Below, piece by piece: positions 1 to 31,766 of a stretch of 31,766 bases of DNA. The notes below the pieces were generated by a model. That model was not told the origin of the DNA and did not search any database. It saw nothing but the letters and a program-made list of their open reading frames with translations. The stretch covers positions 1 through 31,766 of the forward strand of contig JBGPFC010000040.1 of NCBI GenBank assembly GCA_041483195.1. The letters are read 5' to 3'. The DNA is from Candidatus Eiseniibacteriota bacterium. Lineage in GTDB: Bacteria > Eisenbacteria > RBG-16-71-46. The position numbers and the translations under genes were made by a program. Numbering within the stretch: the first letter of the stretch is position 1; each line of letters opens with the position of its first letter.

Positions 1-396
1 CGTGACAAAAGGAACGTCCGGCTCGAACACGATGGTCGCCGCGTCGTCCGAGAGGCTCAATGATCCGGTGTGCAATCCGCTGATCGAGCCCGTGACGGAG
101 AGCGCGCCGGGCGTGAGCGTGCGCTCGTCGATGAGGCTGCCTTCGCGGATCACCACGTTGTTCCATGGAGAGACGCGCCGCGCCGCGGGCACCGGCGACA
201 GATACTCGTAGCTGTCCCGGGACGGGGCGGCGTGCGACGTCCCGCACCATCCGGCCGCGAGCACGAGACCCACGCACGAAGCGATGATCGCGTCGCGCCA
301 CGGGCGCGACGGGAGAAGCGAGACAGATGGTTCACCATCATCGATGGGACGAAATGGAGAACACACCGCGGGGTGGACGCGGCCGCAATCGGGCAT
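1..396 (-). CDS. N-terminal part of a secreted protein with an Ig-like (Big_5-like) N-terminal domain, as seen in secreted aryl-sulfate sulfotransferase-like proteins; truncated by the window edge
   Basis: Not in the ORF track because no stop lies in the window. Hand translation of the - frame ending at base 1 gives ...DAIIASCVGLVLAAGWCGTSHAAPSRDSYEYLSPVPAARRVSPWNNVVIREGSLIDERTLTPGALSVTGSISGLHTGSLSLSDDAATIVFEPDVPFVT. This is a hydrophobic signal-like stretch followed by a 'YLSP.P.A..VS...N..I' Ig-like start. Start codon uncertain (ATG 394-396 or GTG 364-366). Confidence 0.65.
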   Translation of the reverse strand, partial: MPDCGRVHPAVCSPFRPIDDGEPSVSLLPSRPWRDAIIASCVGLVLAAGWCGTSHAAPSRDSYEYLSPVPAARRVSPWNNVVIREGSLIDERTLTPGALSVTGSISGLHTGSLSLSDDAATIVFEPDVPFVT

Positions 397-891
397 GGCA
401 GTCGGCTCCGAGAAAATGGCCCCGGTCGGCTCCACAGGCACGGCCTGAACCAGCGCGGCGCCTCGAGGGGAGGGTCCCGGGCGACTTCGCGCGAGTGGAG
501 CAAACCGACGTCAGGCGAGCGGGGGCACTCCCCGCGCCCTGATCGTTCACTAGAACTGCGCAAAAATTCTAGATGATACAAGGTGTAGCTCGTCCAGTAC
601 GAAATGACGAACGCGGCCTCGAAACATCCACCGCAACCTCGGCCCGATACGATCGTCCATGGCAATGCGTGGCGAGCCGGGATGTTCGTCACGTGTCACC
701 GCGTTGTCAGGCCGGGGGCGTCGGCCTCGATCGCGCGGTACGTTGGACCGGGTAGTTGCAGTGCACGAGGAGTGTGACCCGCGCACGGCGGCCGGCCGCG
801 GCGCTGCCGCCGCGACCGGCTCGCCGCAGGCGCGGGCGCATTCTTCATCGCGCGCTCCGGACCCTCGCGATCGCGCTGGAGATCTCTAAAC

Positions 892-1665
892 ATGATTATG
901 TCGTTCGAAGAAAGCCACTCCTCGCGCCCGATTTCGCACCGGGCGGGCCTCGGCCTCGCCGCATGCGCCGCCGCCCTCTGGATCGTGGCCGCCCTGCTCC
1001 CGGCGGCGAGTCTTGCCGAGTCGAGTCCGAAGCTCCCGCCGCAGATCGGCGGCAAGTGGAAGCTGAACGTCCAGCAGAGCGAAACGCTGCAGCAGAAGAT
1101 GCAGGAGATGCGCGGCTCGGGTGGCGGCGGCGGCGGCGGCGGCGGCGGCTGGCGCCGCGGCGGCGGCGGCGGCGGTGAAGGTGGCGGCGGGTTCGGCCGC
1201 GGCGGCGGAGGTGGCGGCGGCGGGTATGGTGGCGGCCGGGGCGGGATGCGCGGAGGCCGCGGGGGCGGCGGCGAGGGCGGGGCCCCTGACAGCGCGGGGA
1301 ACGGTGCGCGCAATCCGGAGATGCGCGAACTCGCTCAGCCTCCGATGAACCTGCTCATCGAGCAGGCGGACAGCACGCTGGTATTGAGCGAACGCGGGCT
1401 CACGCTGCAGGTGCTGGTGATCGGCGACCTCGCGCTCACCGGGGCGTCGATCGATCCCGATGCGCCGCACGTGTCCGCGAAATGGAAGGGTGAGGATCTG
1501 ATCGCGGAACGCACCACCTCACGCGGCGCCAAGTTCACGCAGACCTTCGAGCTCGGCAAGGACGGCAAGACGCTGATCGTGCGCACGAGGCGCGAGGGCC
1601 AGGGCGACCGGCCCGCGCTCGAGCTGAAGCGCGTATACGATCGCGACACGGCCGAAGGCGACTGA
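892..1665 (+). CDS. Secreted hypothetical protein: lipocalin-like beta-barrel interrupted by a long Gly/Arg-rich low-complexity loop
   Basis: Signal peptide (LAACAAALWIVAALLPAASLA), 'IGGKWKLN' first strand, (GGC)n-encoded Gly runs at ~1117-1280, then a beta-rich C-terminus ending 'LKRVYDR'; GGAG upstream of the ATG. Confidence 0.75.
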   Translation: MIMSFEESHSSRPISHRAGLGLAACAAALWIVAALLPAASLAESSPKLPPQIGGKWKLNVQQSETLQQKMQEMRGSGGGGGGGGGGWRRGGGGGGEGGGGFGRGGGGGGGGYGGGRGGMRGGRGGGGEGGAPDSAGNGARNPEMRELAQPPMNLLIEQADSTLVLSERGLTLQVLVIGDLALTGASIDPDAPHVSAKWKGEDLIAERTTSRGAKFTQTFELGKDGKTLIVRTRREGQGDRPALELKRVYDRDTAEGD

Positions 1666-17536: not shown

Positions 17537-20500
17537 CTACTCCCCGACGATCTGCACCAGCTGCGGCGGCGAGACGCCCTGCTCCTGCGAGGCCTTCGCC
17601 ACCTTCAATGGAATCAGCTTCGAGAACGCCTCATCGTATCGCCAGCGGCGCCACTCGCCATCGAGGCGCACGGTGATGTGCTCGCCCTCGATGCGCAGCG
17701 GCACGCCGCGCCGTGAGGCTTCGCGCGCGATGAACGGCGCCAGCTCCTTCGCCCACTCCTCCGGCGCGATCGCCGACAGCACGTTGCCGGAGTACTGCGC
17801 GGGATCGAGCCGCACCTGCGGATCGAACACGTACACGCGGCCCGCCGCCGCCCCCGACATGAAGAACTTCCCAGCGTAGGGCTTGGGCCGGAGCGCGATC
17901 TCGCCTCGCGCGTCGGGCTTGCGGAACCCCATCACCACGTGCAGCGAGTTCTCGCCGCCCGACATCAGGTACTCGAAAGCGTACTCGTTGGGCGTGCCGA
18001 AGTGGATGGACTTGAAGCCGGGCGCCTGGGTCTTGCCGTCGGCGAGGAACACCTTGTTCTGCCCGGCCGCCGCGAAGCGCGAGCCGGAGTCCCACAGGCT
18101 CACGGTGCCGCCGTGGGCCGCGTACATCGAGGTGTTGAGCACGTCCTGCAGCACGAACAGGTAGCCGGAGTCGGCCTTCATGCCGAGATGGCTCTGACCC
18201 TGGCCGTAGATGCGGATCTCAGCGCCCTCGAGCAGCGCGCCGATGAAGTCGCCGAACTCGCGGCCGAACAGCTCGATCGAGACTCCGTCGGCCGCGAGCC
18301 CGTCGGGCTTCGCGAGGTTGGTGCCGGCGTAGCGCGGGCCGCCGATGAAGTCGTAGCCGACGACGTTTCGCCAGCCGAGCCGCACCGCTTCCGAGAGGAT
18401 GCGCGATGCTGAATCGAGCAGGAACGATTCGCCCCGGAATCCCGCGAAGTCGATCACCAGCACGTCGCGCTCCGCGTCGTTGGGCGGCGCGAGATCGTCG
18501 CGGGTCGCGAGCGTGAGGCGCGCGAAGCGCCACGCGCCGCGTTTCTGGCCGGCGAGCGCCTCGTCGATCCGCGCGACCTCGTCGAGCAGGCGGGTGATCC
18601 CGCCCTCCGGCGATCCGTCCGAGGCGCGGCCGCCGTCGGTCAGGTACTCGACGCTCGAGAGCGCCTTGCCGCCGAGGTCGGCGAACGCGACGCGCTTGCG
18701 CAGCTCGGCCAGCATTCGCAACGCCGCCGCCCGGTGCGATTCGCCGCGCCGCGCGAACGCGATCAGCGCCTGCTCGACCAGGTAGCGGTAGTCCTCGAAG
18801 CTCAGGGTGCGCAGCCGCTCGAGCGCGGCCTCGATCAGCTCGATCGCCGGCGCGGGCAGCGGCTCGTCCGGCCCGAGCCGCCGGCCCGCGCTCATCGCGC
18901 CCGCGCCATCGAGCGCGGTCGCCAGCCGGCCGAGGCGCTCGTCGACGAGCGCCTTCCACGCGGCATCCGCGCGCCGCACCGCCTGATCGAGCGGCAGCGC
19001 GAGATCGGCCTTGCGCCCAGCGCGATCCACCCTCACTTCCTCGCCGAAGCGATTGCGCAGGTCGATCGCGCCGCCGCCGGGCCGCGTGAACGCCTCGAAC
19101 ACGCCGCCGAAATCGTCGCGCCGCGGGTTGCCGCCGGGCCGCATGCTGAAGCGCAGGTCGGCGGCCGCATCCCCGAGCACGCCCTGGCGGTGCAGCACGC
19201 GCAGCATGCTGTCCGCGATCTTGGCCTCGCTCCCGTTCGCGACCGCGTGCACGCCGCCCGGCGCGGTGTCGCGGGTGACGATGATCTCGTGCGGGCGGAG
19301 GAACTTGATGTCCATGTTCTCGCGGAACCCCACCACGCGGCCCTCGGGCGACGGCCGCGACTCGACGATCGTGAACTTGTAGGGGCCGGTCGGCGTGAGC
19401 TGAACGTAGTTCGTCATCAGCAGCGCGAGCTTCGCGCGCCGCGGCTCGTCCATCGCAGCGAGGTCGAGCCCGGTGATGGGCGAGATGATCTGGCTCGCCT
19501 CCTCGGTGGTGAGCCCCAGCACGCGGCGCGTGAAGTCCACCAGGTAGGCCGCGTACTCGGTGTCGGTGAGCGCCTTGCGCTCGTACACCGAGTCGCCGTG
19601 GTACAGCTCGGCGCCCGGGCCCATCGATGGATCGGCGTGGACGAATCCGAACTCGTTCAGGAACGGCGAGGTCGAGTCCACGCCCACCTGCTCGCCGTTG
19701 TGCATGAGCAGCACGTTGTACGCCTTGAACGGATGCGCGCCCGCCGGGTTGCCGCGGCCCTCCGCATCGATCGCCGGCGAGTTGGTGGGGTAGCGATGGT
19801 GCATGCCCCACACGTGCGCGTGGAGCGCGGTGCTGGCGAGCGTGCGCCCGCCGAAGGCGACCTCCACCCCGCCCGCGGCCGCGCCCGGGTAGGACGCCCA
19901 GAAGCGGTCGAAGTCGAAGTACTCGGGGATGGTGTGCGTCCATCCCGACATCTTGATCGCCGCCAGGTCCTCGCCCATCGACACCACGAAGCCGCGGCGC
20001 TTCGCGGCGTACTTGCCGGGCCGCGCCGCGCGCCCGCCCTCGGGCGGCGGCGCGTGGGTGCGGTAGTAACGCGAGTCGAGCAGGTGCGCGAGCGCCGAGA
20101 AGTATTCCTCGCGCACGTCGGCGACGAACTCCGCGAGCCGGCCGGCGATCGGATCGCCCGCCTCCGGCGAATTCCGCAGCGCGACCTCCAGCACCGGGTC
20201 CGGCACGTCGCCGTACTTGGTGCGGCGCTGGAGCCAGTGCTCGCTCGCGATCAGCGTGCGGCCGTAGCGCTCGAGCACCTCGGGCTTCAGCTCGACGAAG
20301 AACGTGTAGAAGTCGCCAGGGTTCTCGCGGAGCGCGGCCCCGCGCCAGCCGTCGTCGCCGGCGTAGCGCGCGCGCACCGGCAGACGGAACGCGTCGAGCT
20401 GCTCGTGGACCGTTGCGGCCCCGACCTCGGCGCCCCGCGCGTCGAAGAAGCGGCAGCCCTCGAGGTGCGCGAGCATCTCGTGCATGCTCGCCACGCGGTC

Positions 20501-23500
20501 GGGGCCGATGGTGTTGAAAACGAGGCAGGTCTTCTCGCGCAACGGCGCCGGCGCGAAGCCGGCGAAGTCGATCCCCCCGCCGCGGTTGTTGCCGCCGTTG
20601 TACGAGAGCCGCGCCGCCTCCCAGATCGCCTCCACAGTGACCGGCTCGCTCACCGCCAGCGAGCCGACGCGGCACGAGTCGTGATCGGCCTCGAGGCGCG
20701 AGGCCGCTGGCTCGGGATGACGCGGCATCTCGAGCAGGTCGGTGCGTCCGCGCAGCTTTCTTATGTCGTCCAGCAGGCGCTCGGGCGCGACCACCACCCC
20801 CGCGCGGTCGAGCGCGCCGGTCTCGAGATTGAGCGCGTCCACCAGCACCGAGAGCTTCACCATGTTGAGCACCGTCCAGTTGCGGAAGCGGAGCTTCATG
20901 AGGTGGCGGTCGTTCTGCATGGTGAGCTCGGGCTTGGTGGTGATCCCGCCGCGCGGGCAATCGAGGTGGCAGTTCCCGCACTGATTGCATCCGAACGCCG
21001 CGGCCTTCCCGATGCTCGCCTCGACCAGCCCGTCCGCGCCGGCGATCAGCACCTTCAGCATGTCGAGCTCGCCCCGCAGCCCGCCCGACGCGAACAGCCG
21101 CGTTCCGCCGCCCGCGCCGAACGGCGCGCCGTTCAGGTCGCGGATCGGGTGCAGGCTGCCCGATCCGTCCAGGTCCACGCGCTCGCTCACCAGCGCGTGA
21201 TGGGTGTGGAGGATGGTGCGGAAGATGTCGGGCCAGCCCACGTGCGATGAGTCGGCGTGATAGTTCCCCGACCCGCCGAGCCCCGAGTCCACCAGCAGGT
21301 AGTCCACCACGAAGTTCGACCACATGCCGGCCGCGACGTACTTCGTGTAGTTGGAGCCGGTGATCTTGATGCCGCAGTAGTTGTGGTAGAGCAGCCACAG
21401 CCACACCTCGGCCGGCATGTCCTCGATCGAGTAGATGTCGTGCTTGGGATCGGGCGAGAGCGCGTCGGTGCCGACCGGAATGTTTCGCGCCTTGCTCACC
21501 GTCGACGTCACCTTGGCGCCCGAGAGCCGCCCGCCCTTGCCGGGCTTCGCGCCCTGGTTGATCTTGATCTCGACGTCGCGCACCCTCCGCAGGTCGGCCG
21601 CGTGAATGCCGAAGTGTCCGCTCGCCGCCTGCAGGCTCTCCCATTTCATCTCGTCGCCGGCGAACCGCAGCGGCCCGCCCTCTCCCGACGACGTCATCGC
21701 GAGCCCGGCGTTGCCCTCGATGCGCGCCATCAGGAAGTCTTCGGACGCAGCGCCCAGCGAGATGCTGGCGTGGCTCACCGGCCCGCTCCAGATCGGCTCG
21801 CGGAATCCGAAGCCGGACAGCACCAGCCCGCCGCGCGGGTCGCGTCGCACCGTGACGCCGCCGTCGCGGGAGGCGCGCAGCACGGTGCGCCCGTTCCCGC
21901 CGTGCCCGCGAGCGAGCAGCTCGATGGCGAGCGACTCGTCGTCGCCGTCCTTCGCATCGAGCCACAGCGAGCCGCCGCCCGGGAGCGCGGCCTCGAGCGG
22001 ATGGCCGGTCTGGAGCCTCACCTCGAATCCGCCGTGCGCGTCGGCCTCGAACGCCGCCAGCGAAGCGCCGCCCGGCGACGCAGCGATCGTCACGTGCGCG
22101 CCGGCGGGCGTCGCCCCGTGGCGCAGGAACCCGCGCGGCACGGCGAGCGAGACGTAATCGAGGAGCGCCGGATCGCGGCGCAGGCGCTCGAGCGACCACG
22201 CGAGCGAAGCACGCGACAGCCTGACCCTCACGCCGTCGAGCGAGAGCTCGCCCATGTCGCTCTCGATGAAGAAGTCCTCTTCGAGCGGCATCCGGCCCGC
22301 CGCCATGCGGTAGATCACGTCGAGGAAGTCGGCGTTCAGGTTGCGGTTCGAATTCTGAAGATGATAGTTCGCGCTCTCGTGCGCGATCACCTTCGCGGCG
22401 TGCACCAGCGGCAGATCGGGCTTCACCTCGGCCAGCAGCGCAGACGCCTTGAAGCGCTCGCGCACCCGCCGCGGCGCGGGCTCCGCCGCGACCCGGCGCG
22501 CGTTGAGCGCCGCGTTCTCGCGGCCGAACTCCGGCGTCGCGAGGCGGTCCACCTCGCGAATCCACTCCTCGGTCATGGTGATCGCCATGGTGTTGCCGGA
22601 GGTCTTCTGGATGTCGTCGATTCCCATGCACGAGAGGAAGTCGAGGATGCTGTGCTGCCAGCACGCGAGGGTGTTGAGCGCGAGGTCGCGCAGCGCAGCG
22701 GGATCGCGGCGCGCGAGGGATGCGATCAACGGCGCGGCGTCGGCGCCGTGGTAGGCGTCCACCAGCTCGGGCAGCAGCGCGATCCCGGCGAGGTGCGTCA
22801 TCGCGCCGCCGTTCGCGCCCAGCAGCACCGATTCGTAGACGGTCGCGGCCGAGGCCTGGGTGTCGGTGTCGCCGCCCGCCGAGATGAGCTGGACGCGCGC
22901 GCGCAGGAAGCGCGCCTTGAGGAACCCGTCGATGCGCGGCGTCAGGCGGTAGGATTTCTCCGCCCCCGACTGGTAGTGGATCGCGGCCACGCCATCCAAC
23001 CGCACCGAGGATTCGAGCGCGGCCCAGAACGCGGCGTCGCTCCCGGCCGCGTCCGCCTGGTAGCGGAGGAACACCGACAACAGGAGCTCGGGGTTGGCCT
23101 CGAGCGCGAGCGCCGCGTCGCGCGCGAGCGTTTCGCTCCACTCGAGCTCAGCGACCCGCGCGGCCCGCAGCGCGGCGCGCATCGCGTCCGAAGCCGCGCC
23201 GGCTCCCGCGAGCAATGCGGCGTCCGCCGGCGAGAGCCGCGGCATGATGTCGGCCGCGAACGGCTTCAGCGCCTCACGATGCTCGAGGTAGCGGGCGGCT
23301 TCGATCACCACCAGCGAGCGCACCCGCACGTCGTGAGCGGGATCGAACGACCCGATCGCCTCGAGCCACGCGCGCTCCATGGTGATGCCGTCGCCGAGCG
23401 GGAGCGGCCCCACCACCATCGGCAGGTCGAGGCGCACCGCGCGGATCGGGGTCTGGGTCCGCCCAGCCGCGGTGCGGAACAGCACGGCCGGGTGCTTGCG

Positions 23501-24004
23501 CACCAGGTCCCACGCCGTCGAGAATTCCTCCCGCAATCCGTCGTTCGCGGGATGCGTGATGGCGGCATGCGAGAAGTACGAGCGCCAGAACCCGTGGTGC
23601 CACGCCGCGCCCAGCGTGAGCGGCTCCTGCCGCCAGCGTTCCTTGATGACCTTGTCGATGTCGAACGAGGTGATCTCGAGCTGCGGGATCTGGCGCGACA
23701 CGCGCGAGTAGCGGCTCAGGAACAGCCGCCCGCGTTGCCCGCGCCCGAGCTTCCAGAACTGGTCCTCCGCGATCTCGGCTCGCTTCAGCAGGAACGTGAG
23801 CGCCGCGCGCTTGCGCGGCCGCTCCGCGACGCGCGGGCTCTCGGGATCCACCACCAGCGTGAGCAGGTCCTCCCAGAGCGCGACCCGCTCGAGGAAGGCC
23901 CCGCCCTCGGCGCCGCCCTCCGCCCCGGCGCGCACACCCGCCTCCGCGCCGTTCTCCGCGCCGTCGATCATCTCGCGCGCCAGCCGCTCGAGGCCGATGC
24001 TCAT
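17537..24004 (-). CDS. gltB: Glutamate synthase large-subunit-like protein with non-canonical domain order (degenerate barrel - FMN barrel/Fe-S - class II glutamine amidotransferase - GXGXG)
   Basis: FMN domain: 'SSGEGG', 'QAASGHFGI', 'EIKINQGAKPGKGGRLSGAKVT', 'SPDPKHDIYSIED', 'ASGGLRG', 'CNQCGNCHLDCP', 'LRGRTDLL'. GATase-2: 'HDSCRVG', 'HHRYPTNS', 'AHPF', 'HNGE', 'TDTE'. GXGXG region: 'GDFIGALLEGAEIRIYGQGQSHLG', 'YAFEYLMSGG', 'SGAAAGRVYV'. Confidence 0.85.
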   Translation of the reverse strand: MSIGLERLAREMIDGAENGAEAGVRAGAEGGAEGGAFLERVALWEDLLTLVVDPESPRVAERPRKRAALTFLLKRAEIAEDQFWKLGRGQRGRLFLSRYSRVSRQIPQLEITSFDIDKVIKERWRQEPLTLGAAWHHGFWRSYFSHAAITHPANDGLREEFSTAWDLVRKHPAVLFRTAAGRTQTPIRAVRLDLPMVVGPLPLGDGITMERAWLEAIGSFDPAHDVRVRSLVVIEAARYLEHREALKPFAADIMPRLSPADAALLAGAGAASDAMRAALRAARVAELEWSETLARDAALALEANPELLLSVFLRYQADAAGSDAAFWAALESSVRLDGVAAIHYQSGAEKSYRLTPRIDGFLKARFLRARVQLISAGGDTDTQASAATVYESVLLGANGGAMTHLAGIALLPELVDAYHGADAAPLIASLARRDPAALRDLALNTLACWQHSILDFLSCMGIDDIQKTSGNTMAITMTEEWIREVDRLATPEFGRENAALNARRVAAEPAPRRVRERFKASALLAEVKPDLPLVHAAKVIAHESANYHLQNSNRNLNADFLDVIYRMAAGRMPLEEDFFIESDMGELSLDGVRVRLSRASLAWSLERLRRDPALLDYVSLAVPRGFLRHGATPAGAHVTIAASPGGASLAAFEADAHGGFEVRLQTGHPLEAALPGGGSLWLDAKDGDDESLAIELLARGHGGNGRTVLRASRDGGVTVRRDPRGGLVLSGFGFREPIWSGPVSHASISLGAASEDFLMARIEGNAGLAMTSSGEGGPLRFAGDEMKWESLQAASGHFGIHAADLRRVRDVEIKINQGAKPGKGGRLSGAKVTSTVSKARNIPVGTDALSPDPKHDIYSIEDMPAEVWLWLLYHNYCGIKITGSNYTKYVAAGMWSNFVVDYLLVDSGLGGSGNYHADSSHVGWPDIFRTILHTHHALVSERVDLDGSGSLHPIRDLNGAPFGAGGGTRLFASGGLRGELDMLKVLIAGADGLVEASIGKAAAFGCNQCGNCHLDCPRGGITTKPELTMQNDRHLMKLRFRNWTVLNMVKLSVLVDALNLETGALDRAGVVVAPERLLDDIRKLRGRTDLLEMPRHPEPAASRLEADHDSCRVGSLAVSEPVTVEAIWEAARLSYNGGNNRGGGIDFAGFAPAPLREKTCLVFNTIGPDRVASMHEMLAHLEGCRFFDARGAEVGAATVHEQLDAFRLPVRARYAGDDGWRGAALRENPGDFYTFFVELKPEVLERYGRTLIASEHWLQRRTKYGDVPDPVLEVALRNSPEAGDPIAGRLAEFVADVREEYFSALAHLLDSRYYRTHAPPPEGGRAARPGKYAAKRRGFVVSMGEDLAAIKMSGWTHTIPEYFDFDRFWASYPGAAAGGVEVAFGGRTLASTALHAHVWGMHHRYPTNSPAIDAEGRGNPAGAHPFKAYNVLLMHNGEQVGVDSTSPFLNEFGFVHADPSMGPGAELYHGDSVYERKALTDTEYAAYLVDFTRRVLGLTTEEASQIISPITGLDLAAMDEPRRAKLALLMTNYVQLTPTGPYKFTIVESRPSPEGRVVGFRENMDIKFLRPHEIIVTRDTAPGGVHAVANGSEAKIADSMLRVLHRQGVLGDAAADLRFSMRPGGNPRRDDFGGVFEAFTRPGGGAIDLRNRFGEEVRVDRAGRKADLALPLDQAVRRADAAWKALVDERLGRLATALDGAGAMSAGRRLGPDEPLPAPAIELIEAALERLRTLSFEDYRYLVEQALIAFARRGESHRAAALRMLAELRKRVAFADLGGKALSSVEYLTDGGRASDGSPEGGITRLLDEVARIDEALAGQKRGAWRFARLTLATRDDLAPPNDAERDVLVIDFAGFRGESFLLDSASRILSEAVRLGWRNVVGYDFIGGPRYAGTNLAKPDGLAADGVSIELFGREFGDFIGALLEGAEIRIYGQGQSHLGMKADSGYLFVLQDVLNTSMYAAHGGTVSLWDSGSRFAAAGQNKVFLADGKTQAPGFKSIHFGTPNEYAFEYLMSGGENSLHVVMGFRKPDARGEIALRPKPYAGKFFMSGAAAGRVYVFDPQVRLDPAQYSGNVLSAIAPEEWAKELAPFIAREASRRGVPLRIEGEHITVRLDGEWRRWRYDEAFSKLIPLKVAKASQEQGVSPPQLVQIVGE

Positions 24005-26655
24005 CGCGCGGTCTCCCGCTCCAGCTCATCGAGCGCGACGAACCAGTCGCGCGTCGGCGCCTCGATCACGCGCAGCGTCTGCCCGCCGTTCAGCTCGTTC
24101 GCCGGGCACACCTCGACGCAGGTTCCGCAGCCGATGCAGCGCTCCTGCAACGTGGTGATCGAACGCGGATCCTCGCCATCGAACTCGCGGTTCGCGAAGG
24201 TCGGGCACACCGCGACGCACGCCCCGCAGTGGATGCAGGTGGCGGCCGGTCCGGCGTCGTTCTCGGCGCGCAGCAGCAGGTAGCGGGCGACGCCCGGCAG
24301 CGCCGCCGGCGCGCGCTTGAGGTAGGCGCCGGGCCGCACGTTCAGGAACTCCCGCGTGTAGCGCGGCGAGGCGCGCAGCGCCGCGAGCAGCGCGACGTGG
24401 CGCTCGCGGCGATCCGCGCGGGCCGCCGGCGCCGGTTCGGCCGCGTCGGCGGCGCGCTGCATGTGCTCGTAGAGCGGCAGGTGCGGGATCCCCGCCTGGC
24501 AGACCTCCTCGCAGTTGCCGCATCGCATGCACAGATCGAGCAGCGTGCGGCCGCTCTCGCCGATCGCCTCGCCGGCGTGATGGGCCTCGCCGAGATGGGT
24601 GAGCATCTGCGGCAGCCGGATCTTCGAATCGACGAAGACCGGGCACACGGTGTTGCACTCGCCGCAGTTCACGCAGTTGAGCGCGCGGGCGGAGGCGGCC
24701 TGCGGCGTGACGCCGTCCGCCGCCGGCGCGTGCGCGGCGCCGACCGGCTCTCCTCGGCCGCGCGCCGGGCCGGGGAAGATCGCGGCGATCGGGCGCGCGA
24801 GCCGCGCGAGCCAGGAGAGCGCCGCGCTCCCGTAGATCACGCGCATCGCGGTGACGCTCGGGACGAAGGTCGCGGTCAGCATCGCGCCCAACGCGCCGTG
24901 AAGCCGGAGGCCCAGCCGCACGCCGCGGTTCACGATCCCGGCGGGATCGAGCTTCGCCTTGAGTGCCCGCGTTGCCGCCGCGCGCTCGCGGCCCAGCTGG
25001 CGATCGGCCCATGCCGACTGCCAGCGGCCGAGGACGTAGGGCCGTCCGCCGTGCGCGTTCATCGCGAGATCCACCAGCGCCGGCGCGATCATGAGATCGA
25101 TCGCGAACGCGCCGCTGCGGTGGTCGGTGAGATATCCCCCGATGACGAGCGCCTCGCCGTCCGCGAGGAAGTAGACCTCGGCATCGAGCGCGTTGCCCGC
25201 GCCGCGCGCCAGCGCCTCGGCCCGCGGCAGGAAGGTGCGCACCTGCGCGGCGGGCATGACGATCTCGGCGGCGAGCAGGCCGGGGCCGAGCCGCTTGGTC
25301 TGCTGGGGCTTGAAGCGCTCGGCCGCGAACCGCACGCTCTCCTCGCCGAGCAGCCGCGGCGCGCCGGGCGCCTCCTGCCAGACCGCCGCGAACGTGCGGG
25401 CTTCATCGAGACCGAGGAAATCCACGAACAGGTAGGCCGCGGCGTGTTCGCGGTCGGGCGCGGCCTCGGCGCCCAGCTCCGCCGGCCCGGCGATGCGCGT
25501 CCACGGCAGACGCGCCCCGCTCGAGAGCGCGCTCGGGCGTTCCTTCCAGGTTCGCGCGTCCTCGTCCCGCCACACGCGGCGCGTGTGGTGGAGGTGAGAG
25601 CCCGAGAACAGCTTCAGATTGGCGGGCCTCGGGAACCGCGAGCCCGCGCCGCTCAGGACCCAATCGGCCGCGTCGAGCGCGGCTTCGCGCGTCTCGAACG
25701 ACATCAGGAACGCGCCGATCTCCCGCAGCGGCTCGACCCGCACCGCGAGGTGGAGCAGCACGCCGAACACGCCCTCGCTGCCCGCGAGGTCGCGCAGCGT
25801 GATGGGCGAGAGTCCGCGCGCGGTGAACCACGCGGCGGCTTCGGCGGGCGCGAGCGACTTGCGATGGCGGCCATCCGGCACGTCGAGCCGTCCGTCGTCG
25901 TGAAAGCGCAGGTGCTCGCCGTCGGGCAGCACCAGGTCGGCGGCGCGCACGCTGTCGAGCGCGCGACCGTTGCCGAACGCGTTCATGCCGATGCCGCCGG
26001 TCGCGAACCAGCCCGCGAGCGTGCCCCCGAGATTCGACGGGTAGACCCGAAGCGCGAGGCCGCGCTCCGCGAGGCGCTGATGCACGGTGCGCAGCCTCGC
26101 GCCGGCGCCCACCACGCACACGCCGTCGGCGGCGAGGATCTCGATCTCGTCGAGCCGCGAGAGATCGAGCGTGAGCCCGCCGTCGTTCGGCACCGATCCG
26201 CCCATCGCGGTCGACGCCGCGCCGCGCAGCGTGACGGGCACGCCGTAGGTGCGTCCCCAGCGCAGCGCCGTCACGACTTCGGCGCGATGCGCGGGCTGGA
26301 AGATCAGATCGGGGACCGCCCGCGTGAGGGTGCGCGTGAACAGGCGGCCGAGATAGACGTTCTGGTCGCGATCGGCCTCGCGGCGCAGCAGCGCGTCGGT
26401 CACGATGCGGGCGTCGCGCGTGTGCCCGCCGCCGTCGTCGCCGGCCTCCGCGCTCAGCACCGCGAGCAGCGAAGCGGCCAGCTCGAGCGTGCGACGCGGC
26501 GCCTCGCGCCCGGCGGGCGCGCGGCCGTCGTCGAAGAAGGTGTGGAGGTCCGGGATCGCGGTTCGCACGGCAGCGGCTCGCTGCTCGTGGGTCAGCGCCG
26601 TGAACGCATCCAGCGATTGACCGGCGACTCGCTCGAGGAAGGAGGGCTGGGTCAT
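24001..26655 (-). CDS. FAD-binding oxidoreductase (FAD_binding_4, GlcD/VAO superfamily) fused to two dicluster [4Fe-4S] ferredoxin domains
   Basis: 'PDLIFQP...VPVTLRGAASTAMGGSVP..GGLTLDLSRL', 'YPSNLGGTLAGWFATGGIG', 'GSEGVFGV', 'KAKLDPAGIVNRG'. Four motifs: CVNCGECNTVCP, CMRCGNCEEVCQ, CIHCGACVAVCP, CIGCGTCVEVCP. ATGA overlap with the gltB-like gene. Confidence 0.88.
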   Translation of the reverse strand: MTQPSFLERVAGQSLDAFTALTHEQRAAAVRTAIPDLHTFFDDGRAPAGREAPRRTLELAASLLAVLSAEAGDDGGGHTRDARIVTDALLRREADRDQNVYLGRLFTRTLTRAVPDLIFQPAHRAEVVTALRWGRTYGVPVTLRGAASTAMGGSVPNDGGLTLDLSRLDEIEILAADGVCVVGAGARLRTVHQRLAERGLALRVYPSNLGGTLAGWFATGGIGMNAFGNGRALDSVRAADLVLPDGEHLRFHDDGRLDVPDGRHRKSLAPAEAAAWFTARGLSPITLRDLAGSEGVFGVLLHLAVRVEPLREIGAFLMSFETREAALDAADWVLSGAGSRFPRPANLKLFSGSHLHHTRRVWRDEDARTWKERPSALSSGARLPWTRIAGPAELGAEAAPDREHAAAYLFVDFLGLDEARTFAAVWQEAPGAPRLLGEESVRFAAERFKPQQTKRLGPGLLAAEIVMPAAQVRTFLPRAEALARGAGNALDAEVYFLADGEALVIGGYLTDHRSGAFAIDLMIAPALVDLAMNAHGGRPYVLGRWQSAWADRQLGRERAAATRALKAKLDPAGIVNRGVRLGLRLHGALGAMLTATFVPSVTAMRVIYGSAALSWLARLARPIAAIFPGPARGRGEPVGAAHAPAADGVTPQAASARALNCVNCGECNTVCPVFVDSKIRLPQMLTHLGEAHHAGEAIGESGRTLLDLCMRCGNCEEVCQAGIPHLPLYEHMQRAADAAEPAPAARADRRERHVALLAALRASPRYTREFLNVRPGAYLKRAPAALPGVARYLLLRAENDAGPAATCIHCGACVAVCPTFANREFDGEDPRSITTLQERCIGCGTCVEVCPANELNGGQTLRVIEAPTRDWFVALDELERETAR

Positions 26656-26778: not shown

Positions 26779-26787
26779 ACTATAGCA
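26779..26787 (-). promoter_or_regulatory. Extended -10 element (TGcTATAGT) for the oxidoreductase/gltB-like operon
   Basis: Reverse complement of actatagca, ~125 nt upstream of ATG 26655. A divergent TGgTATCGT lies at 26841-26849. Confidence 0.5.
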
Positions 26788-26907
26788 GAGGGCTGCGGGG
26801 CGGTCACATGGACGGCGGCCGCGCCAGCGTGTGAAAATGTTGGTATCGTTGAACCAACATGACCGGGCTGGACCCGCGCCTCCGGAGTGGCGCATCGAGG
26901 GCATCCC

Positions 26908-28030: not shown

Positions 28031-28058
28031 TAAAGTATACCCGCGCCGTTGCCGATGG
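28031..28058 (+). promoter_or_regulatory. Putative sigma28 (FliA/SigD/WhiG-type) promoter
   Basis: TAAA(G)-N-GCCGATGG: TAAA at 28031-28034 and GCCGAT at 28051-28056 (16-nt spacer; consensus TAAA-N15-GCCGATAA). Confidence 0.55.
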
Positions 28059-28159
28059 TACGGGGGTTGAGGCTTCTCCGCTGCGCATGGCCCCCCCTCG
28101 CGCACAACAGCATTCATTCAAGTGCAGTCTCGAGTGTCCACCGGGCCTGGAGTCCATCC

Positions 28160-30697
28160 GTGCCTGATCGCACGCCATCAGAAGCCACCCCCCGCGGCGG
28201 GAGCGCGGCCGCGCCCGCCGCATGGGTGGTCATGCTGGTCGGCGCCGGCGCGCTGATCGGATGGCAGCTGAACGTCGCGGCGCTCAAGAGCGTCCTCCCC
28301 GGGCTGGTCGCCATGAATCCCGCCACCGCGGTGGCGTTCGTCCTCGCCGGGATGTCGCTGATGTCGCTGCGCGACCCCGCGGCCCCGCTGCGGGTACGTC
28401 GCGCGGGGTACCTGCTCGCGGCGGCGGTGGCCGCGATCGGGCTCCTGCGACTCTGCGATCTCCTGCTCGGCTCGCGCGTGTGCCCGGACACGTACCTGTT
28501 CGCCTCCCAGCTCTCGAGCGCGCAGGGGTTGCCGCCCAACCGGATGGCCCCGAACACGGCGACCGGATTCATGCTCGTGGGGCTCGCGTTGATCACGCTC
28601 AACTGGGAGATTCGCCGCGGCCATCGCCCCTCGCAGGCGTTCGCGCTGCTCGCCGCGGGACTCTCGCTGCTCGCCGTTCTCGGCTACCTGCTCGACGTCC
28701 GCCAGCTGTACGGCGTGGGGTCGTTCATCCCGATGGCGCTCAACACCGCCATCCTGTTCCTGGTGTGTTCGGTCGGGGTGCTGTTCGCGCGTCCGGCGCG
28801 CGGGATCACGCGGGTGATCGTGGCGAGCGACGCGGGCGGCACCCTGGCGCGCCGCCTGCTGCCGTTCGCGCTCGTGACGCCCGTCGTCCTGGCGTGGTTG
28901 AGGATCTACGCCCAGCGCGCGGGGGTGCTCGCCTCCGAACCGGGCGTCTCGGTGATGGTGTTCCTCGGCATCGTGATCCTGACCGGCTTCATCTGGTGGA
29001 ACGCGAGCCGACTGAGCCATGCGGACATCGAGCGCAGGGACGCGCTGGCGGAGCTTACGCGCGCCCACGACGATCTCGAGCTGCGGGTGAGCGAGCGCAC
29101 GTCGCAGCTCGAAGACCTCAACCGGCGGATGCGCGGCGAGGTCGGCGAGCATGTCCAGACGGCGAACGCGTTGCGCGCCTCGGAGGCGCGCTATCGTCTG
29201 CTCTTCACCTCCAACCCGCACCCGATGTGGGTCTACGACCGCGTGACCCTGAGATTCATGGCGGTGAACGACGCGGCGATCAGGCTCTACGGCTATTCCA
29301 TGGACGAGTTCAGGGACATGACGATCGAGGACATCCTGCCCGCGGAGCAGGTGCCGGCGCTGCTCCCGGAAATTAGAGGCTCCCGGCCGGCGCTCAATCG
29401 TTCCGGCGAATGGAAGCACCGGCGGAAGGACGGCACGGTGCTCGACGTCGAAGTGTCGTCCCACACGCTGGTGTTCGCGGACCGCGATGCGGCGCTGGTG
29501 CTGGCGCTCGACGTGACCAGTCGCAGGCAGCTCGAGGCGCAGCTGCGCCAGGCGCAGAAGATGGAAGCCGTCGGCCAGCTCGCGGGAGGCGTCGCCCATG
29601 ATTTCAACAATCTGCTCACCGCGATCATGGGGTACGGACAGTTGATCCAGGTGAGACTCGCCCCGGACGACCCCGCGATCCACGACAGCGGCGAGATCCT
29701 GAAGGCCGCGGAGCGCGCGGCGTCGCTCACGCGGCAGCTGCTGGCCTTCAGCCGCCGGCAGCTGCTGGAACCGCGCGTGCTCGACCTGAACGCCGTGATC
29801 ACCGGGTTGGACAAGATGCTGCGGCGGCTGATCGGCGAGGACATCGATCTGGTCACGGCGCCGACCTCCGAGCTCGGCATGGTTCGGGCCGATCCGGGCC
29901 AGATCGAGCAGGTGCTGATGAACCTGGTCGTCAACGCGCGCGACGCGATGCCCCACGGCGGACGGCTCACCATCGAGACCGCGAACGTCACGCTCGGCGA
30001 GGACTACGCCCGCGCGCACGTGGACGTGAAGCCCGGACGCCATGTCATGCTGGCGGTGAGCGACACCGGGGTCGGCATGAGCCCGGAGACGCGGGCGCGC
30101 ATCTTCGAGCCGTTCTTCACGACGAAGGAAACGGGCAAGGGCACCGGGCTCGGCCTCTCGACCGTGCACGGAATTGTCCGGCAGAGCGAGGGGCACATCG
30201 AGGTCTACACCGAGCCGGGACATGGCACGACGTTCAAGATCTGCCTGCCCCGCGTGGAAGGCGCGGTGGAGCCGGCCGACGCGCGGCAGGACGCGCTGGA
30301 GCGCGTCGCGGGAACCGAGACCATCCTGGTGGTCGAGGACGAAGAGAGCATCCGCGGGGTGATCCGCGCGTCCCTGGAGGTCTACGGGTACCGAGTGCTC
30401 GAGGCCGCGGACGGAAGCGAGGGGATCACGATCTGCGAGCGTCGCGAGCAACGCATCGATCTGCTGATGGCCGACGTCGTGATGCCGCTGATGGGCGGGC
30501 CCGAGCTGGTGCGGCGCATCGGAATGGTCCGCCCGGATCTGCCGGTGCTGTTGATCTCGGGCTACACCGACCGGGCGCTCACCCACCAGGGCCTGCGGGA
30601 ATCGGAGACCGCATTCCTCCAGAAACCCTTCACCCCCGAAGCGCTGGCGCGAAAGGTCCGCGAGATCCTCGACGCTCCGCTCCGGGACGCCGCCTGA
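28160..30697 (+). CDS. Hybrid sensor histidine kinase/response regulator (multi-TM sensor, PAS, HisKA, HATPase, REC; CckA-like core)
   Basis: About 7-8 TM segments; PAS 'NPHPMWVYD...VNDAA...YGYS'; H-box 'GGVAHDFNNLL'; N-box 'NLVVNARDAM'; 'FFTTK..GKGTGLGL'; REC 'VVED...DVVMP...KPF'. GGAG before GTG 28160. Confidence 0.93.
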   Translation: MPDRTPSEATPRGGSAAAPAAWVVMLVGAGALIGWQLNVAALKSVLPGLVAMNPATAVAFVLAGMSLMSLRDPAAPLRVRRAGYLLAAAVAAIGLLRLCDLLLGSRVCPDTYLFASQLSSAQGLPPNRMAPNTATGFMLVGLALITLNWEIRRGHRPSQAFALLAAGLSLLAVLGYLLDVRQLYGVGSFIPMALNTAILFLVCSVGVLFARPARGITRVIVASDAGGTLARRLLPFALVTPVVLAWLRIYAQRAGVLASEPGVSVMVFLGIVILTGFIWWNASRLSHADIERRDALAELTRAHDDLELRVSERTSQLEDLNRRMRGEVGEHVQTANALRASEARYRLLFTSNPHPMWVYDRVTLRFMAVNDAAIRLYGYSMDEFRDMTIEDILPAEQVPALLPEIRGSRPALNRSGEWKHRRKDGTVLDVEVSSHTLVFADRDAALVLALDVTSRRQLEAQLRQAQKMEAVGQLAGGVAHDFNNLLTAIMGYGQLIQVRLAPDDPAIHDSGEILKAAERAASLTRQLLAFSRRQLLEPRVLDLNAVITGLDKMLRRLIGEDIDLVTAPTSELGMVRADPGQIEQVLMNLVVNARDAMPHGGRLTIETANVTLGEDYARAHVDVKPGRHVMLAVSDTGVGMSPETRARIFEPFFTTKETGKGTGLGLSTVHGIVRQSEGHIEVYTEPGHGTTFKICLPRVEGAVEPADARQDALERVAGTETILVVEDEESIRGVIRASLEVYGYRVLEAADGSEGITICERREQRIDLLMADVVMPLMGGPELVRRIGMVRPDLPVLLISGYTDRALTHQGLRESETAFLQKPFTPEALARKVREILDAPLRDAA

Positions 30698-31571: not shown

Positions 31572-31603
31572 GCCGCGCAGCATACGGTACGAGCGTGCGA
31601 TTC

Positions 31604-31766
31604 GGGAGCGGGGCAAGGCGCGGGACGTGCCCGGCCGACGGTTTACCTCTAGGAGGCCGGGCACGTCCCGCGCCTTGCCCCGCTCCCCGCCGACGGTTCG
31701 CCTCGTAGCGGCACGGGCGGGGCGCCGGGCGGGCGCTCCCGGCCGACGGTTTACCTCTAGGAGGCC
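31604..31766. repeat. Perfect 33-bp inverted repeat plus a 29-bp direct repeat at the window end
   Basis: Arms 31604-31636 and 31655-31687 around an 18-nt loop. CCCGGCCGACGGTTTACCTCTAGGAGGCC occurs at 31630-31658 and 31738-31766, with a degenerate copy at ~31689-31712. Confidence 0.92.

What the first reader, a model, noticed from the sequence alone, without database searches (positions are those of the whole stretch)
17537..26655. Glutamate-synthase-like system whose partner is an FAD-linked dehydrogenase/polyferredoxin rather than GltD
Seen: the 884-aa FAD_binding_4 protein with four CxxCxxCxxxC motifs overlaps the start of the 2155-aa GltB-like gene by ATGA (24001-24004). No GltD-like NAD(P)H subunit is in the window. 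Known: glutamate synthases take electrons from NAD(P)H via GltD or from soluble ferredoxin, while GlcD/VAO-type flavoproteins typically oxidise 2-hydroxy acids and related substrates. Inference: this may be a self-contained complex that oxidises an organic donor at FAD and passes electrons through up to four [4Fe-4S] clusters to the FMN site for reductive amination. It could also run in reverse. Either would be a glutamate synthase configuration I do not recognise.
Basis: partly seen in the sequence, partly recalled or inferred. Interest (0 to 1): 0.9.

Follow-up and report, generated by a model that had tools for sequence, protein, structure and literature searches.

The report
Rearranged glutamate synthase with flavoprotein partner
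Two overlapping genes of an uncultured sediment bacterium encode an uncharacterised, domain-shuffled relative of glutamate synthase and a dedicated FAD/iron-sulfur partner that takes the place of the usual NADPH subunit, in a genome that oddly has no glutamine synthetase.

Summary
An 884-aa FAD_binding_4 protein with four invariant CxxCxxCxxxC motifs overlaps, by ATGA, a 2155-aa protein that carries the genome's only glutamate-synthase FMN domain. There is no GltD in the window.

The pair is one conserved unit. In 48 of 48 related loci that hold the large gene's start, the partner lies upstream on the same strand. In three other metagenome loci the two are fused into one ~3000-aa ORF.

The large protein is a permuted GltB: an extra FMN-type barrel, the FMN domain with a 4-Cys cluster motif, then a class-II amidotransferase, then GXGXG. 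Its catalytic cysteine is residue 1111, so internal self-cleavage is predicted but not shown.

The partner is GlcD-like but lacks the His/His/Glu-His motifs shared by E. coli GlcD and YdiJ. Its electron donor is therefore unknown, and a 2-hydroxy-acid donor is not supported.

Nine of 16 carriers in this phylum, including this genome, have no glutamine synthetase. Five carry GS-III inside the operon. Carriers from other phyla do have GS.

The direction and physiological role remain open. Best reading: a new two-subunit glutamate synthase variant (0.55). This scan found the same family before on three other genomes. My four searches of the held papers, which carry few subscription-journal articles, found no description.

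The parts
24001..26655 (-). Partner gene (P0002, 884 aa): GlcD-like FAD flavoprotein fused to two 2x[4Fe-4S] ferredoxin domains
   Evidence: ORF and translation; Pfam; family of 288 proteins with the same architecture
24904..26313 (-). GlcD-like two-domain flavoprotein part (residues 115-584); the FAD_binding_4 core is 115-251
   Evidence: PF01565 E 2.5e-27. hhalign to E. coli GlcD 56-473, prob 97.3, E 2.5e-11; to YdiJ prob 94. ESM Atlas neighbours are FAD_binding_4 + FAD-oxidase_C clusters, score 0.95. The His/His/Glu-His motifs of GlcD and YdiJ are replaced
24487..24684 (-). First dicluster domain (residues 658-723): C661/664/667/671 and C709/712/715/719
   Evidence: Fer4_8 and Fer4_17 hits; all 8 Cys invariant in 28 sequences
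24097..24243 (-). Second dicluster domain (residues 805-853): C807/810/813/817 and C840/843/846/850
   Evidence: Fer4, Fer4_7, Fer4_9 and Fer4_10 hits; all 8 Cys invariant
24001..24004 (-). ATGA stop/start overlap coupling the two genes
   Evidence: Sequence read directly
17537..24004 (-). Large gene (P0001, 2155 aa): permuted glutamate-synthase-like protein
   Evidence: ORF. 171 proteins at E <= 0.001; the best 120 listed are 56-82% identical and 108 of them cover at least 95% of the query. It is the only PF01645 match in the genome
22592..23683 (-). N-terminal (beta/alpha)8 barrel (about residues 108-471), a structural look-alike of the GltB FMN domain with no Pfam signature
   Evidence: AF2 model, pLDDT 80-92 over 200-380. 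VIA Z 17.5, rmsd 3.7, 281 aligned to A. brasilense GltB 787-1171. Profile-level duplication is not significant, E 0.22
20879..21781 (-). FMN/synthase domain (residues 742-1042)
   Evidence: PF01645 E 8.4e-42; hhalign to E. coli GltB 859-1173, prob 99.2, E 3e-19; PDB GltS hits E 2e-20
20957..20989 (-). C1006-x2-C1009-x2-C1012-x3-C1016-P motif at the place of the GltB [3Fe-4S] Cx5Cx4C site
   Evidence: Aligned to GCKYLRICHLNNC of E. coli GltB; all four Cys invariant
20672..20674 (-). Cys1111, the structural equivalent of the N-terminal catalytic Cys1 of class-II (Ntn) amidotransferases; predicted self-cleavage site S1110|C1111
   Evidence: VIA aligns model residue 16 (= C1111) to residue 1 or 2 of GltS, PurF, GlmS, GFAT and AsnS chains. 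D1109, S1110, C1111, R1112, V1113 and G1114 are invariant. Cleavage itself is inferred
19025..20674 (-). Class-II glutamine amidotransferase-like domain (residues 1111 to about 1660)
   Evidence: VIA Z 17.6 to Fd-GltS 1ofe and Z 8-9 to PurF and GlmS. Motifs are colinear with E. coli GltB counted from the Cys. The profile reaches GATase_6/2/7 proteins. Pfam itself gives no hit
17705..18367 (-). GXGXG-type beta-helix region (about residues 1880-2100)
   Evidence: PF01493 E 0.044, below cut-off, and E 0.018 in homolog P0085. The GltS structural alignment runs to chain residue 1507. Fused relatives score PF01493 above cut-off
26779..26807 (-). Promoter-like site GTGACC-17-TATAGT upstream of the partner gene
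   Evidence: Consensus scan; 1 found against 0.4 expected. A weak indication only

Best explanation
The two genes encode one iron-sulfur flavoenzyme of the glutamate synthase type.

The large chain holds all GltB modules in a new order: an extra FMN-type barrel, the FMN/2-oxoglutarate domain with a 4-Cys cluster, a class-II amidotransferase, then the GXGXG beta-helix. The 884-aa chain replaces GltD as the redox subunit. Electrons would pass between its FAD and the FMN through four [4Fe-4S] clusters and the cluster of the large chain.

Most likely reaction (inferred): glutamine is hydrolysed at Cys1111, ammonia is channelled to the FMN site, and 2-iminoglutarate is reduced to glutamate.

The amidotransferase cysteine is internal, so the large chain is predicted to cut itself between S1110 and C1111 to free the Ntn nucleophile. 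This is inferred by analogy with the propeptides of GltB and PurF.

What reduces the FAD is unknown. It is probably not a classical D-2-hydroxy acid.

Shown here: gene pairing, fusions, folds, motifs and cofactor ligands. Inferred: substrates, direction, cleavage and physical contact.
For: Pairing: the partner is upstream on the same strand in 48 of 48 loci that hold the large gene's N-terminus. In 40 the gap is <=150 nt, in 4 GS-III lies between, and in 4 the gap is 151-1405 nt. No other window ORF is conserved in these neighbourhoods.

Fusions: P0358 (3016 aa) and P0365 (2508 aa, partial) join a partner-like and a large-chain-like part colinearly (P0002 E 6.5e-37, P0001 E 5e-76). P0411 (3152 aa) joins them in another order. 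DNA of L084 and L085 shows uninterrupted 3039- and 3025-aa ORFs that are 73% identical; L086 holds a third, partial copy.

GltB modules: PF01645 E 8e-42 and hhalign to E. coli GltB at 99.2%. The C-half model matches Fd-GltS residues 1..1507 with Z 17.6, and C1111 aligns to Cys1 of GltS, PurF, GlmS and AsnS. Motifs C1, R31, HxR[FY]xTN, A[QH]PF, HNGE, [ST]D[ST], [DT]GP and [GF]LRP are colinear with E. coli GltB. The profile reaches Pfam class-II GATases in 11 of 20 distant hits scanned.

Redox wire: the 16 partner Cys and the 4 large-chain Cys are invariant.

Context: this is the only PF01645 gene in a 96.8%-complete genome. In G137, G138 and G139 it is the only one and GS is present. GS-III sits between the two genes in L014, L023, L034 and L058 and in 5 of the 16 carriers in this phylum.
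Against: The own genome has no glutamine synthetase (0 PF00120 matches; tblastn with GS-III gives nothing below E 0.6), and neither do 9 of 16 carriers in the phylum. A glutamine-consuming enzyme there has no endogenous substrate, although the genome has at least 5 class-I amidotransferases.

No Pfam or PDB sequence hit supports the amidotransferase. Cys1111 is internal, and cleavage is untested. No naturally split form beginning at that Cys was found: all 18 candidates inspected, of 70 shorter relatives, start at internal positions.

The NCBIfam GltB equivalog score is 76.5 against a cut-off of 1047. The cluster motif and the GGTGASP stretch differ from GltB.

The partner lacks the motifs shared by E. 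coli GlcD and YdiJ, so no donor can be named.

Three GltD-like genes exist elsewhere in the genome. GltD-like domains lie 2-8.5 kb downstream on the opposite strand in 8 Actinomycetota loci.

The FMN part of the N-half model is of low confidence.
Confidence: 0.55

Rival explanations
1. Same complex, opposite direction. It oxidises glutamate at FMN and sends the electrons out through the Fe-S chain to the FAD and on to an acceptor. It would serve glutamate catabolism or, with ammonia driven back through the tunnel, ATP-independent glutamine formation that stands in for the missing glutamine synthetase.
For: 9 of 16 carriers in the phylum lack GS, against 4 of 109 non-carriers. Among 31 relatives, 13 of 16 carriers lack GS and 0 of 15 non-carriers do. 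GS-less carriers fall in 8 genera of 2 families; within genus g25 one carrier has in-operon GS-III and one has none. The gene stays intact and conserved without GS. The genome still needs glutamine, with at least 5 class-I amidotransferases. VAO-type flavoproteins are often oxidases (general knowledge). My own estimate from textbook potentials is that the reverse reaction becomes favourable with an acceptor above about -0.1 to -0.2 V.
Against: 5 of 5 carriers from other phyla have GS. GS-III lies inside the operon in 5 carriers and 4 loci, which fits a GS-GOGAT pair. The genome already has 3 GDH genes for glutamate oxidation. Making a gamma-glutamyl thioester from free glutamate is chemically hard, and glutamine synthesis by a GltS has never been reported (recalled). 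The genomes compared are kin, so the counts overstate independence.
Confidence: 0.1
2. The amidotransferase-like domain is not processed and is not a glutaminase. The complex is then an ammonia-dependent glutamate synthase, or a glutamate:acceptor oxidoreductase (an Fe-S flavoprotein counterpart of GDH), and the Ntn-like domain is structural or regulatory.
For: Cys1111 is 1110 residues from the N-terminus. No split form was seen. There is no Pfam GATase hit. GS is absent from the genome.
Against: Every class-II hallmark motif is present and invariant across 24 sequences. The residues before the Cys (HDS) are also invariant, as expected for a processing site. The fused relatives keep E.DAC, and free-standing relatives keep EGGCGV behind a 7-40-residue leader. 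Such conservation is hard to explain for a dead domain.
Confidence: 0.15
3. A GltB-like enzyme with other chemistry, such as an amine or amide transfer of the N-methylglutamate-synthase kind or an unknown 2-oxo acid or amide pair. The flavoprotein would act on a pathway intermediate.
For: GltB-type modules are reused in N-methylglutamate synthase (recalled). The GGTGASP stretch of the FMN domain reads GGSGNYH here. There is an extra barrel of unknown role. The FAD site is atypical.
Against: The substrate loop QGAKPG.GG...SP.P.HDIYSIED is nearly identical to that of GltB. The only recurrent extra gene in the operon is GS-III. A dedicated five-cluster wire implies net redox chemistry.
Confidence: 0.07
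4. The two genes are merely co-transcribed neighbours. The large protein would take electrons from soluble ferredoxin or from a GltD-like protein encoded elsewhere.
For: Three GltD-like genes are in the genome. GltD-like domains lie near the operon in 8 Actinomycetota loci.
Against: Synteny holds in 48 of 48 loci across at least four phylum-level labels. Fusion into one ORF is seen in three loci. The GltD-like genes belong to bc-complex, POR and NuoF clusters, score far below the GltD cut-off, and are absent from all Eisenbacteria loci.
Confidence: 0.05

Closest known systems
Bacterial NADPH-glutamate synthase GltB/GltD (A. brasilense 1ea0, 2vdc, 6s6s; B. subtilis 7mfm; E. coli gltBD)
   Same: The FMN/synthase domain, class-II amidotransferase fold, GXGXG beta-helix and a Cys cluster beside the FMN domain are all present. 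It is likewise a two-gene enzyme in which a second chain carries FAD and [4Fe-4S] clusters. Passages of the review PMC8097209 describe the FAD to 2x[4Fe-4S] to [3Fe-4S] to FMN chain.
   Different: The domain order is barrel-FMN-GATase-GXGXG instead of GATase-central-FMN-GXGXG. The catalytic Cys is at residue 1111. The cluster motif is CxxCxxCxxxCP instead of Cx5Cx4C. The partner has a VAO/GlcD fold with four clusters instead of an adrenodoxin-reductase-like GltD with two. The NCBIfam score is 76.5 against 1047.
Ferredoxin-dependent glutamate synthase (Synechocystis 1ofd, 1ofe, 1llw)
   Same: It is the best structural match of the C-terminal half (Z 17.6, 548 aligned residues, rmsd 4.1) and of the N-half in Foldseek (1ofd, 890 columns).
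   Different: Fd-GltS is a single chain that docks soluble ferredoxin. Here the ferredoxin modules are fused to a flavoprotein encoded in the operon.
Split or 'archaeal-type' GOGAT pieces: free-standing GATase and GATase+GXGXG proteins of about 500-900 aa (e.g. P0376, named 'glutamate synthase [Deltaproteobacteria bacterium]' by NCBI)
   Same: These are the nearest sequence relatives of the amidotransferase part outside the family. They show the same GATase-then-GXGXG order. The Cys sits behind a leader that would have to be removed.
   Different: Those are separate small proteins and their partners were not examined here. Even in C. thermocellum the donor and activity of such an operon are unmeasured (passage of PMC9888227).
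Glycolate dehydrogenase GlcD(EF) and D-2-hydroxyglutarate dehydrogenase YdiJ of E. coli; mitochondrial D-lactate dehydrogenase (8jdc)
   Same: It has FAD_binding_4 plus a cap domain over the full length. As in GlcF and YdiJ, a CxxCxxCxxxC dicluster module follows.
   Different: There are no CCG domains; a second ferredoxin domain stands in their place. The H..D.G..H and GEHG.G motifs of E. coli GlcD and YdiJ are replaced by YFLADGEAL and PYVLGRW. The NCBIfam glcD score is 42.7 against 567.9.

Membership tests
Glutamate synthase large subunit GltB | FMN/2-oxoglutarate (synthase) domain PF01645 | tested here: met
   144 bits against a cut-off of 20.4; hhalign 99.2% to E. coli GltB 859-1173
Glutamate synthase large subunit GltB | Class-II (Ntn) glutamine amidotransferase domain with its hallmark motifs | tested here: met
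   Fold: VIA Z 17.6 to GltS and Z 8-9 to PurF and GlmS, starting at the Cys. Motifs are colinear. The profile reaches GATase_6/2/7 proteins. Pfam GATase_2 itself gives no hit
Glutamate synthase large subunit GltB | Catalytic Cys at or near the N-terminus of the chain, with domain order GATase-central-FMN-GXGXG | tested here: not met
   The Cys is residue 1111 and the amidotransferase follows the FMN domain
Glutamate synthase large subunit GltB | [3Fe-4S] ligand motif Cx5Cx4C after the barrel | tested here: not met
   CxxCxxCxxxCP lies at the aligned place; cluster type is not testable here
Glutamate synthase large subunit GltB | C-terminal GXGXG beta-helix PF01493 | tested here: inconclusive
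   13.7 bits against a cut-off of 32.5. The structural alignment to GltS extends to residue 1507
Glutamate synthase large subunit GltB | NCBIfam equivalog NF008730 cut-off | tested here: not met
   76.5 bits against 1047
Glutamate synthase large subunit GltB | Catalysis of Gln + 2-oxoglutarate + 2e- to 2 Glu | not testable with these tools
   Needs an enzyme assay
Glutamate synthase small subunit GltD as partner | A GltD (TIGR01317) gene adjacent to the large-subunit gene | tested here: not met
   No match on the contig, and the best match in the genome is 186 bits against 447.7. tblastn with E. coli GltD finds nothing in the Eisenbacteria loci. In 8 Actinomycetota loci it finds only opposite-strand genes of a POR/NuoF cluster
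GlcD / D-lactate dehydrogenase family (VAO superfamily) | FAD_binding_4 domain | tested here: met
   95.7 bits against 26.4
GlcD / D-lactate dehydrogenase family (VAO superfamily) | FAD-oxidase_C cap domain | tested here: inconclusive
   Pfam gives 20.3 bits against 21.2, but hhalign covers GlcD 56-473 at 97.3%
GlcD / D-lactate dehydrogenase family (VAO superfamily) | Conserved H..D.G..H and GEHG.G motifs. That these are the metal and substrate ligands in LDHD and D2HGDH is recalled, not tested | tested here: not met
   Replaced in P0002, in 4 further family members and in the 3 fused relatives, while present in E. coli GlcD and YdiJ
GlcD / D-lactate dehydrogenase family (VAO superfamily) | NCBIfam glcD equivalog cut-off | tested here: not met
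   42.7 bits against 567.9

The most novel reading that the evidence does not exclude
In the glutamine-synthetase-less Eisenbacteria the complex runs backwards as a redox-driven, ATP-independent glutamine synthase. Glutamate is oxidised at FMN and the electrons leave through five Fe-S clusters to the FAD and an acceptor. The ammonia released is forced through the tunnel onto a second glutamate at the self-cleaved Cys1111 site. The operon would thus functionally replace GS.
Probability: 0.08. Interest if true: 0.95.

Novelty: new variant of a known kind. Interest (0 to 1): 0.75.

Why it matters
The review read here (PMC8097209, passages) describes three electron-input types of glutamate synthase: NADPH via GltD, soluble ferredoxin, and the fused NADH form. 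This would add a fourth input module, a VAO-type flavoprotein with four clusters, and the first permuted large subunit.

Its Ntn nucleophile lies 1110 residues inside the chain. That implies either an unusually large self-cleavage event or a new way of using an internal cysteine.

The family is not rare. At E <= 0.001 there are 171 and 288 protein clusters for the two chains. The MAG records carry labels of Eisenbacteria, Thermoleophilia/Actinomycetota, Planctomycetota and Krumholzibacteriia.

In many genomes it is the only GOGAT-like gene, so nitrogen budgets inferred for these soil and sediment lineages depend on what it does.

Its persistence in free-living genomes without any glutamine synthetase is an unexplained piece of central nitrogen metabolism. 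It is directly testable by expression and assay.

Tried and rejected
(1) Complex prediction of the FMN domain (730-1100) with the partner's ferredoxin domains (640-884) gave no verdict (ipSAE 0.15 and 0.12, mark 0.32; controls not run). This is not evidence either way.

(2) Expression: no RNA holder is listed among 24 runs, all DNA from sediment or groundwater metagenomes.

(3) Search for a natural split at Cys1111: the 18 candidates I inspected, of 70 shorter relatives, all begin at internal positions (contig ends or frameshifts), and none begins with Met-Cys.

(4) Sequence evidence for the amidotransferase: Pfam at E <= 5 finds nothing. The A5 profile against the PDB gives 0 hits at E <= 10. 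hhalign to the E. coli GltB N-domain gives only E 0.19, though over the DGP...LRP stretch.

(5) Internal duplication of the two barrels at profile level: E 0.22, not significant.

(6) I first read the N-terminal barrel as the GltB 'central domain'. The structural second look prefers the FMN domain; the two readings are not separated.

(7) The upstream palindrome as a conserved operator: 0 of 78 loci match the pattern.

(8) An apparent partner-large fusion in L011 and L040, suggested by long open frames, was rejected because the two hits are in different frames.

(9) Literature: four searches found no description ('glutamate synthase' + Eisenbacteria; + permuted / amidotransferase domain / FMN; + FAD-linked oxidase / polyferredoxin; 'glutamate synthase-related protein'). 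A fifth, on GS-lacking / Eisenbacteria / glnN / GOGAT, gave only unrelated organisms. I saw listings only, except for passages of PMC8097209 and PMC9888227.

(10) Searches failed on a size limit and a frame slip and were corrected.
Full report
**Observation.** The minus strand of the window carries two long ORFs. One is 24001-26655 (884 aa, P0002) and the other 17537-24004 (2155 aa, P0001).
- The sequence ...GCG CGA TGA / ATG AGC... confirms the ATGA overlap at 24001-24004.
- Pfam gives P0002 FAD_binding_4 (115-251, E 2.5e-27) and two dicluster ferredoxin domains (658-723 and 805-853). It gives P0001 only Glu_synthase PF01645 (742-1042, E 8.4e-42).
- The window is the whole contig C40 of a 4.17-Mb, 96.8%-complete genome.
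- No GltD-like match lies on that contig, and none of the 9 matches in the genome reaches the TIGR01317 cut-off (best 186 against 447.7 bits).

**A conserved two-gene unit.** P0001 has 171 relatives at E <= 0.001. The best 120 listed are 56-82% identical, and 108 of them cover at least 95% of its length. P0002 has 288 relatives with the same architecture.
- A scan of one genome per species returned 63 loci, labelled Eisenbacteria, Thermoleophilia/Actinomycetota, Planctomycetota, Krumholzibacteriia and others.
- Some 'MAG TPA' labels look unreliable.
- In 15 loci the contig ends before the large gene's start.
- In all 48 others a P0002 homolog lies upstream on the same strand. It is adjacent (estimated gap <=150 nt) in 40, separated by a type-III glutamine synthetase gene in 4, and separated by 151-1405 nt in 4.
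- No other ORF of the window is conserved around the homologs. The exception is a rhomboid gene in 12 close relatives.

**Fusions.** A profile of the amidotransferase region (A5) was run over 1.84 billion representative proteins and found 134 proteins. Among them, P0358 (3016 aa) and P0365 (2508 aa, partial; NCBI MGH7596618.1) contain a P0002-like part followed colinearly by a P0001-like part. P0411 (3152 aa) contains the same modules in another order.
- I fetched the DNA. L084 and L085 each hold one uninterrupted ORF of 3039 and 3025 aa, 73% identical to each other. Both carry FAD_binding_4, FAD-oxidase_C, Glu_synthase and GXGXG. L086 is a third, partial copy.
- Together with the synteny, this is strong genomic evidence that the flavoprotein and the GltB-like protein act as one enzyme.

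**Anatomy of the large chain.** AlphaFold models were made of residues 1-1100 (pLDDT 66; the FMN part is poor) and 1096-2155 (pLDDT 75).
- The C-half matches glutamate synthases best: VIA Z 17.6, 548 residues, rmsd 4.1 to 1ofe, with model 16..1050 against chain 1..1507.
- Every class-II amidotransferase in the list (PurF, GlmS, GFAT, AsnS) aligns from model residue 16, which is Cys1111, to its own residue 1 or 2.
- Counted from that Cys, the motifs C1, R31, HHRYPTN (292), AHPF (313), HNGE (325), TDT (370), TGP (429) and FLRP (458) follow the order of E. coli GltB, where they sit at C1, R31, 204, 218, 226, 267, 323 and 344. All are invariant in 24 sequences.
- Pfam and PDB sequence searches do not see this domain. 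However, the A5 profile reaches proteins that carry GATase_6, GATase_2 or GATase_7 in 11 of 20 scanned. Five of the 20 carry GXGXG (GATase_6 was also scored in three of these), in proteins of about 790-900 aa.
- The N-half contains a confident (beta/alpha)8 barrel (about 108-471) whose best match is the FMN domain of GltB (Z 17.5 to 6s6s 787-1171). This is a second barrel without the Pfam signature; duplication is not significant at profile level. A beta-sandwich lies at about 620-745.
- At the site of the GltB [3Fe-4S] motif the family has an invariant CxxCxxCxxxCP.
- The protein is therefore a permuted GltB: barrel, FMN, GATase, GXGXG.

**The internal cysteine.** Ntn amidotransferases need the Cys alpha-amine free. 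Here the Cys is preceded by 1110 residues, and the preceding H-D-S is itself invariant or nearly so.
- The fused relatives keep E.DAC internally.
- The free-standing relatives keep EGGCGV behind leaders of 7-40 residues. E. coli GltB likewise has an 11-residue leader in its translation.
- I infer autoproteolysis between S1110 and C1111. This is not shown. No naturally split form was found: all 18 candidates inspected, of 70 shorter hits, begin at internal positions.

**The partner.** Residues 115-584 align to the whole of E. coli GlcD (hhalign 97.3%, E 2.5e-11) and to YdiJ (94%). The nearest solved relative by sequence is D-lactate dehydrogenase, and the nearest ESM Atlas clusters are GlcD/D-LDH-like.
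- The two motifs shared by E. coli GlcD and YdiJ, H..D.G..H and GEHG.G, read YFLADGEAL and GGR-PYVLGRW in P0002, in four other family members and, with variations, in the three fusions.
- From memory, those residues bind the metal and the 2-hydroxy acid in LDHD and D2HGDH.
- The FAD site is therefore a distinct subtype and its substrate cannot be named.
- All 16 cluster cysteines are invariant.
- No transmembrane segment stands out (highest 19-residue hydropathy 1.6).

**Nitrogen context.** The genome has one PF01645 gene, this one. It has three GDH genes and at least five class-I glutamine amidotransferases, but no glutamine synthetase.
- Among the 125 genomes of the phylum that are >=90% complete, 16 carry the large gene. 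Of these, 9 have no GS, 5 have GS-III about 3.7 kb upstream of the FMN hit on the same contig (that is, inside the operon), and 2 have GS elsewhere.
- Of the 109 non-carriers, 105 have GS.
- These tallies, and those of the 31 relatives (13 of 16 carriers lack GS, 0 of 15 non-carriers do), include the unpublished genome G020, a non-carrier with GS. They also come from related genomes, so they are not independent.
- GS-less carriers occur in 8 genera of 2 families. Within genus g25 one carrier has the in-operon GS and one has none.
- Outside the phylum, 5 of 5 carriers have GS, and in 3 of them the large gene is the only PF01645 gene.
- The operon is thus tied to glutamine metabolism, but it is not simply a GS substitute.

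**GltD-like genes.** The three in this genome sit beside a Rieske/cytochrome b cluster, beside a POR subunit, and alone near pntAB. In 8 Actinomycetota loci a GltD-like domain lies 2-8.5 kb downstream on the opposite strand, within a POR/NuoF-type cluster. No such gene is found in the Eisenbacteria loci.

**Mechanism.** The best-supported reading is a two-chain glutamate synthase variant. FAD and four [4Fe-4S] clusters on the small chain are wired to the 4-Cys cluster and FMN of the large chain, with glutamine hydrolysis at the freed Cys1111.
- Passages of PMC8097209 give the FMN potential of canonical GltS as about -240 mV and the [3Fe-4S] potential as about -280 mV.
- By my own estimate from textbook potentials, either direction is thermodynamically possible depending on the partner's substrate.
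- The absence of GS in most Eisenbacteria carriers keeps the reverse reading and the ammonia-dependent reading alive.

**Prior knowledge.** Four searches of the held literature gave no description of this architecture. A fifth returned unrelated organisms. Source annotations say only 'glutamate synthase-related protein', 'FAD-binding protein' or 'glycolate oxidase'. The scan's own notes show that the same family was flagged on three other genomes, with the same conclusions and the same GS puzzle. I reached the pairing, the permutation and the GS pattern independently here. From the notes I could see, this report adds the fusion proteins, the Cys1 structural equivalence with colinear motifs, and the loss of the GlcD/YdiJ motifs.

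Noticed in passing
window 26837-26860 (- strand): A perfect inverted repeat, ATGTTGGT-N8-ACCAACAT, lies in the ~200-nt non-coding stretch upstream of the partner gene, just before the promoter-like site at 26779-26807. It may be an operator. The pattern is absent from all 78 other loci held at that point.
   Followed up: partly
whole genome G000: No glutamine synthetase of any type (0 PF00120 matches) in a 96.8%-complete, 4.17-Mb genome that encodes at least 5 class-I glutamine amidotransferases and 3 GDH-type dehydrogenases.
   Followed up: yes
L014:7570-9897, and L023, L034, L058: A type-III glutamine synthetase gene (GSIII_N, Gln-synt_C, Gln-synt_C-ter) is inserted between the partner gene and the large gene. 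The same arrangement is inferred in G088, G100, G101, G102 and G011.
   Followed up: yes
L045:8028-8945: In the closest relative's locus a 306-aa ClpP/NfeD-like ORF (SDH_protease, NfeD1b_N) sits between the partner and the large gene.
   Followed up: no
L084:4932-14051 and L085:5001-14078: Single ORFs of about 3030 aa fuse the FAD module, the GltB-like modules and GXGXG. They lie in lower-GC contigs whose neighbours (Por_Secre_tail, FlgD_ig, peptidase M28) suggest an FCB-group bacterium. Only one CxxCxxCxxxC motif was found in P0358, so the Fe-S wire may differ.
   Followed up: partly
L046:17596-25142 and L036:21164-26478 (opposite strand): Actinomycetota carriers have, downstream of the operon, a cluster with Fer2_4, Fer4_20/Pyr_redox_2 (GltD-like), TPP_enzyme_C, POR_N and NuoF-like (Complex1_51K) domains. 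It looks like an NAD(P)H-linked 2-oxoacid oxidoreductase cluster.
   Followed up: partly
window 28049-30697 (+), 30741-31766 (-), 1724-3691 (-): Other genes of the window: a hybrid histidine kinase (PAS, HisKA, HATPase_c, receiver), a rhomboid protease (conserved near the operon in 12 close relatives), and a 655-aa DAO-family FAD oxidoreductase. There are also TPR proteins, a GDSL lipase, a DUF1579 protein and a FlgD_ig-tailed protein.
   Followed up: no
P0411 (ENA, 3152 aa): A third fusion has the order GATase-GXGXG-FAD module-barrel-FMN and a signal-peptide-like N-terminus. This shows that these modules have been shuffled more than once.
   Followed up: no
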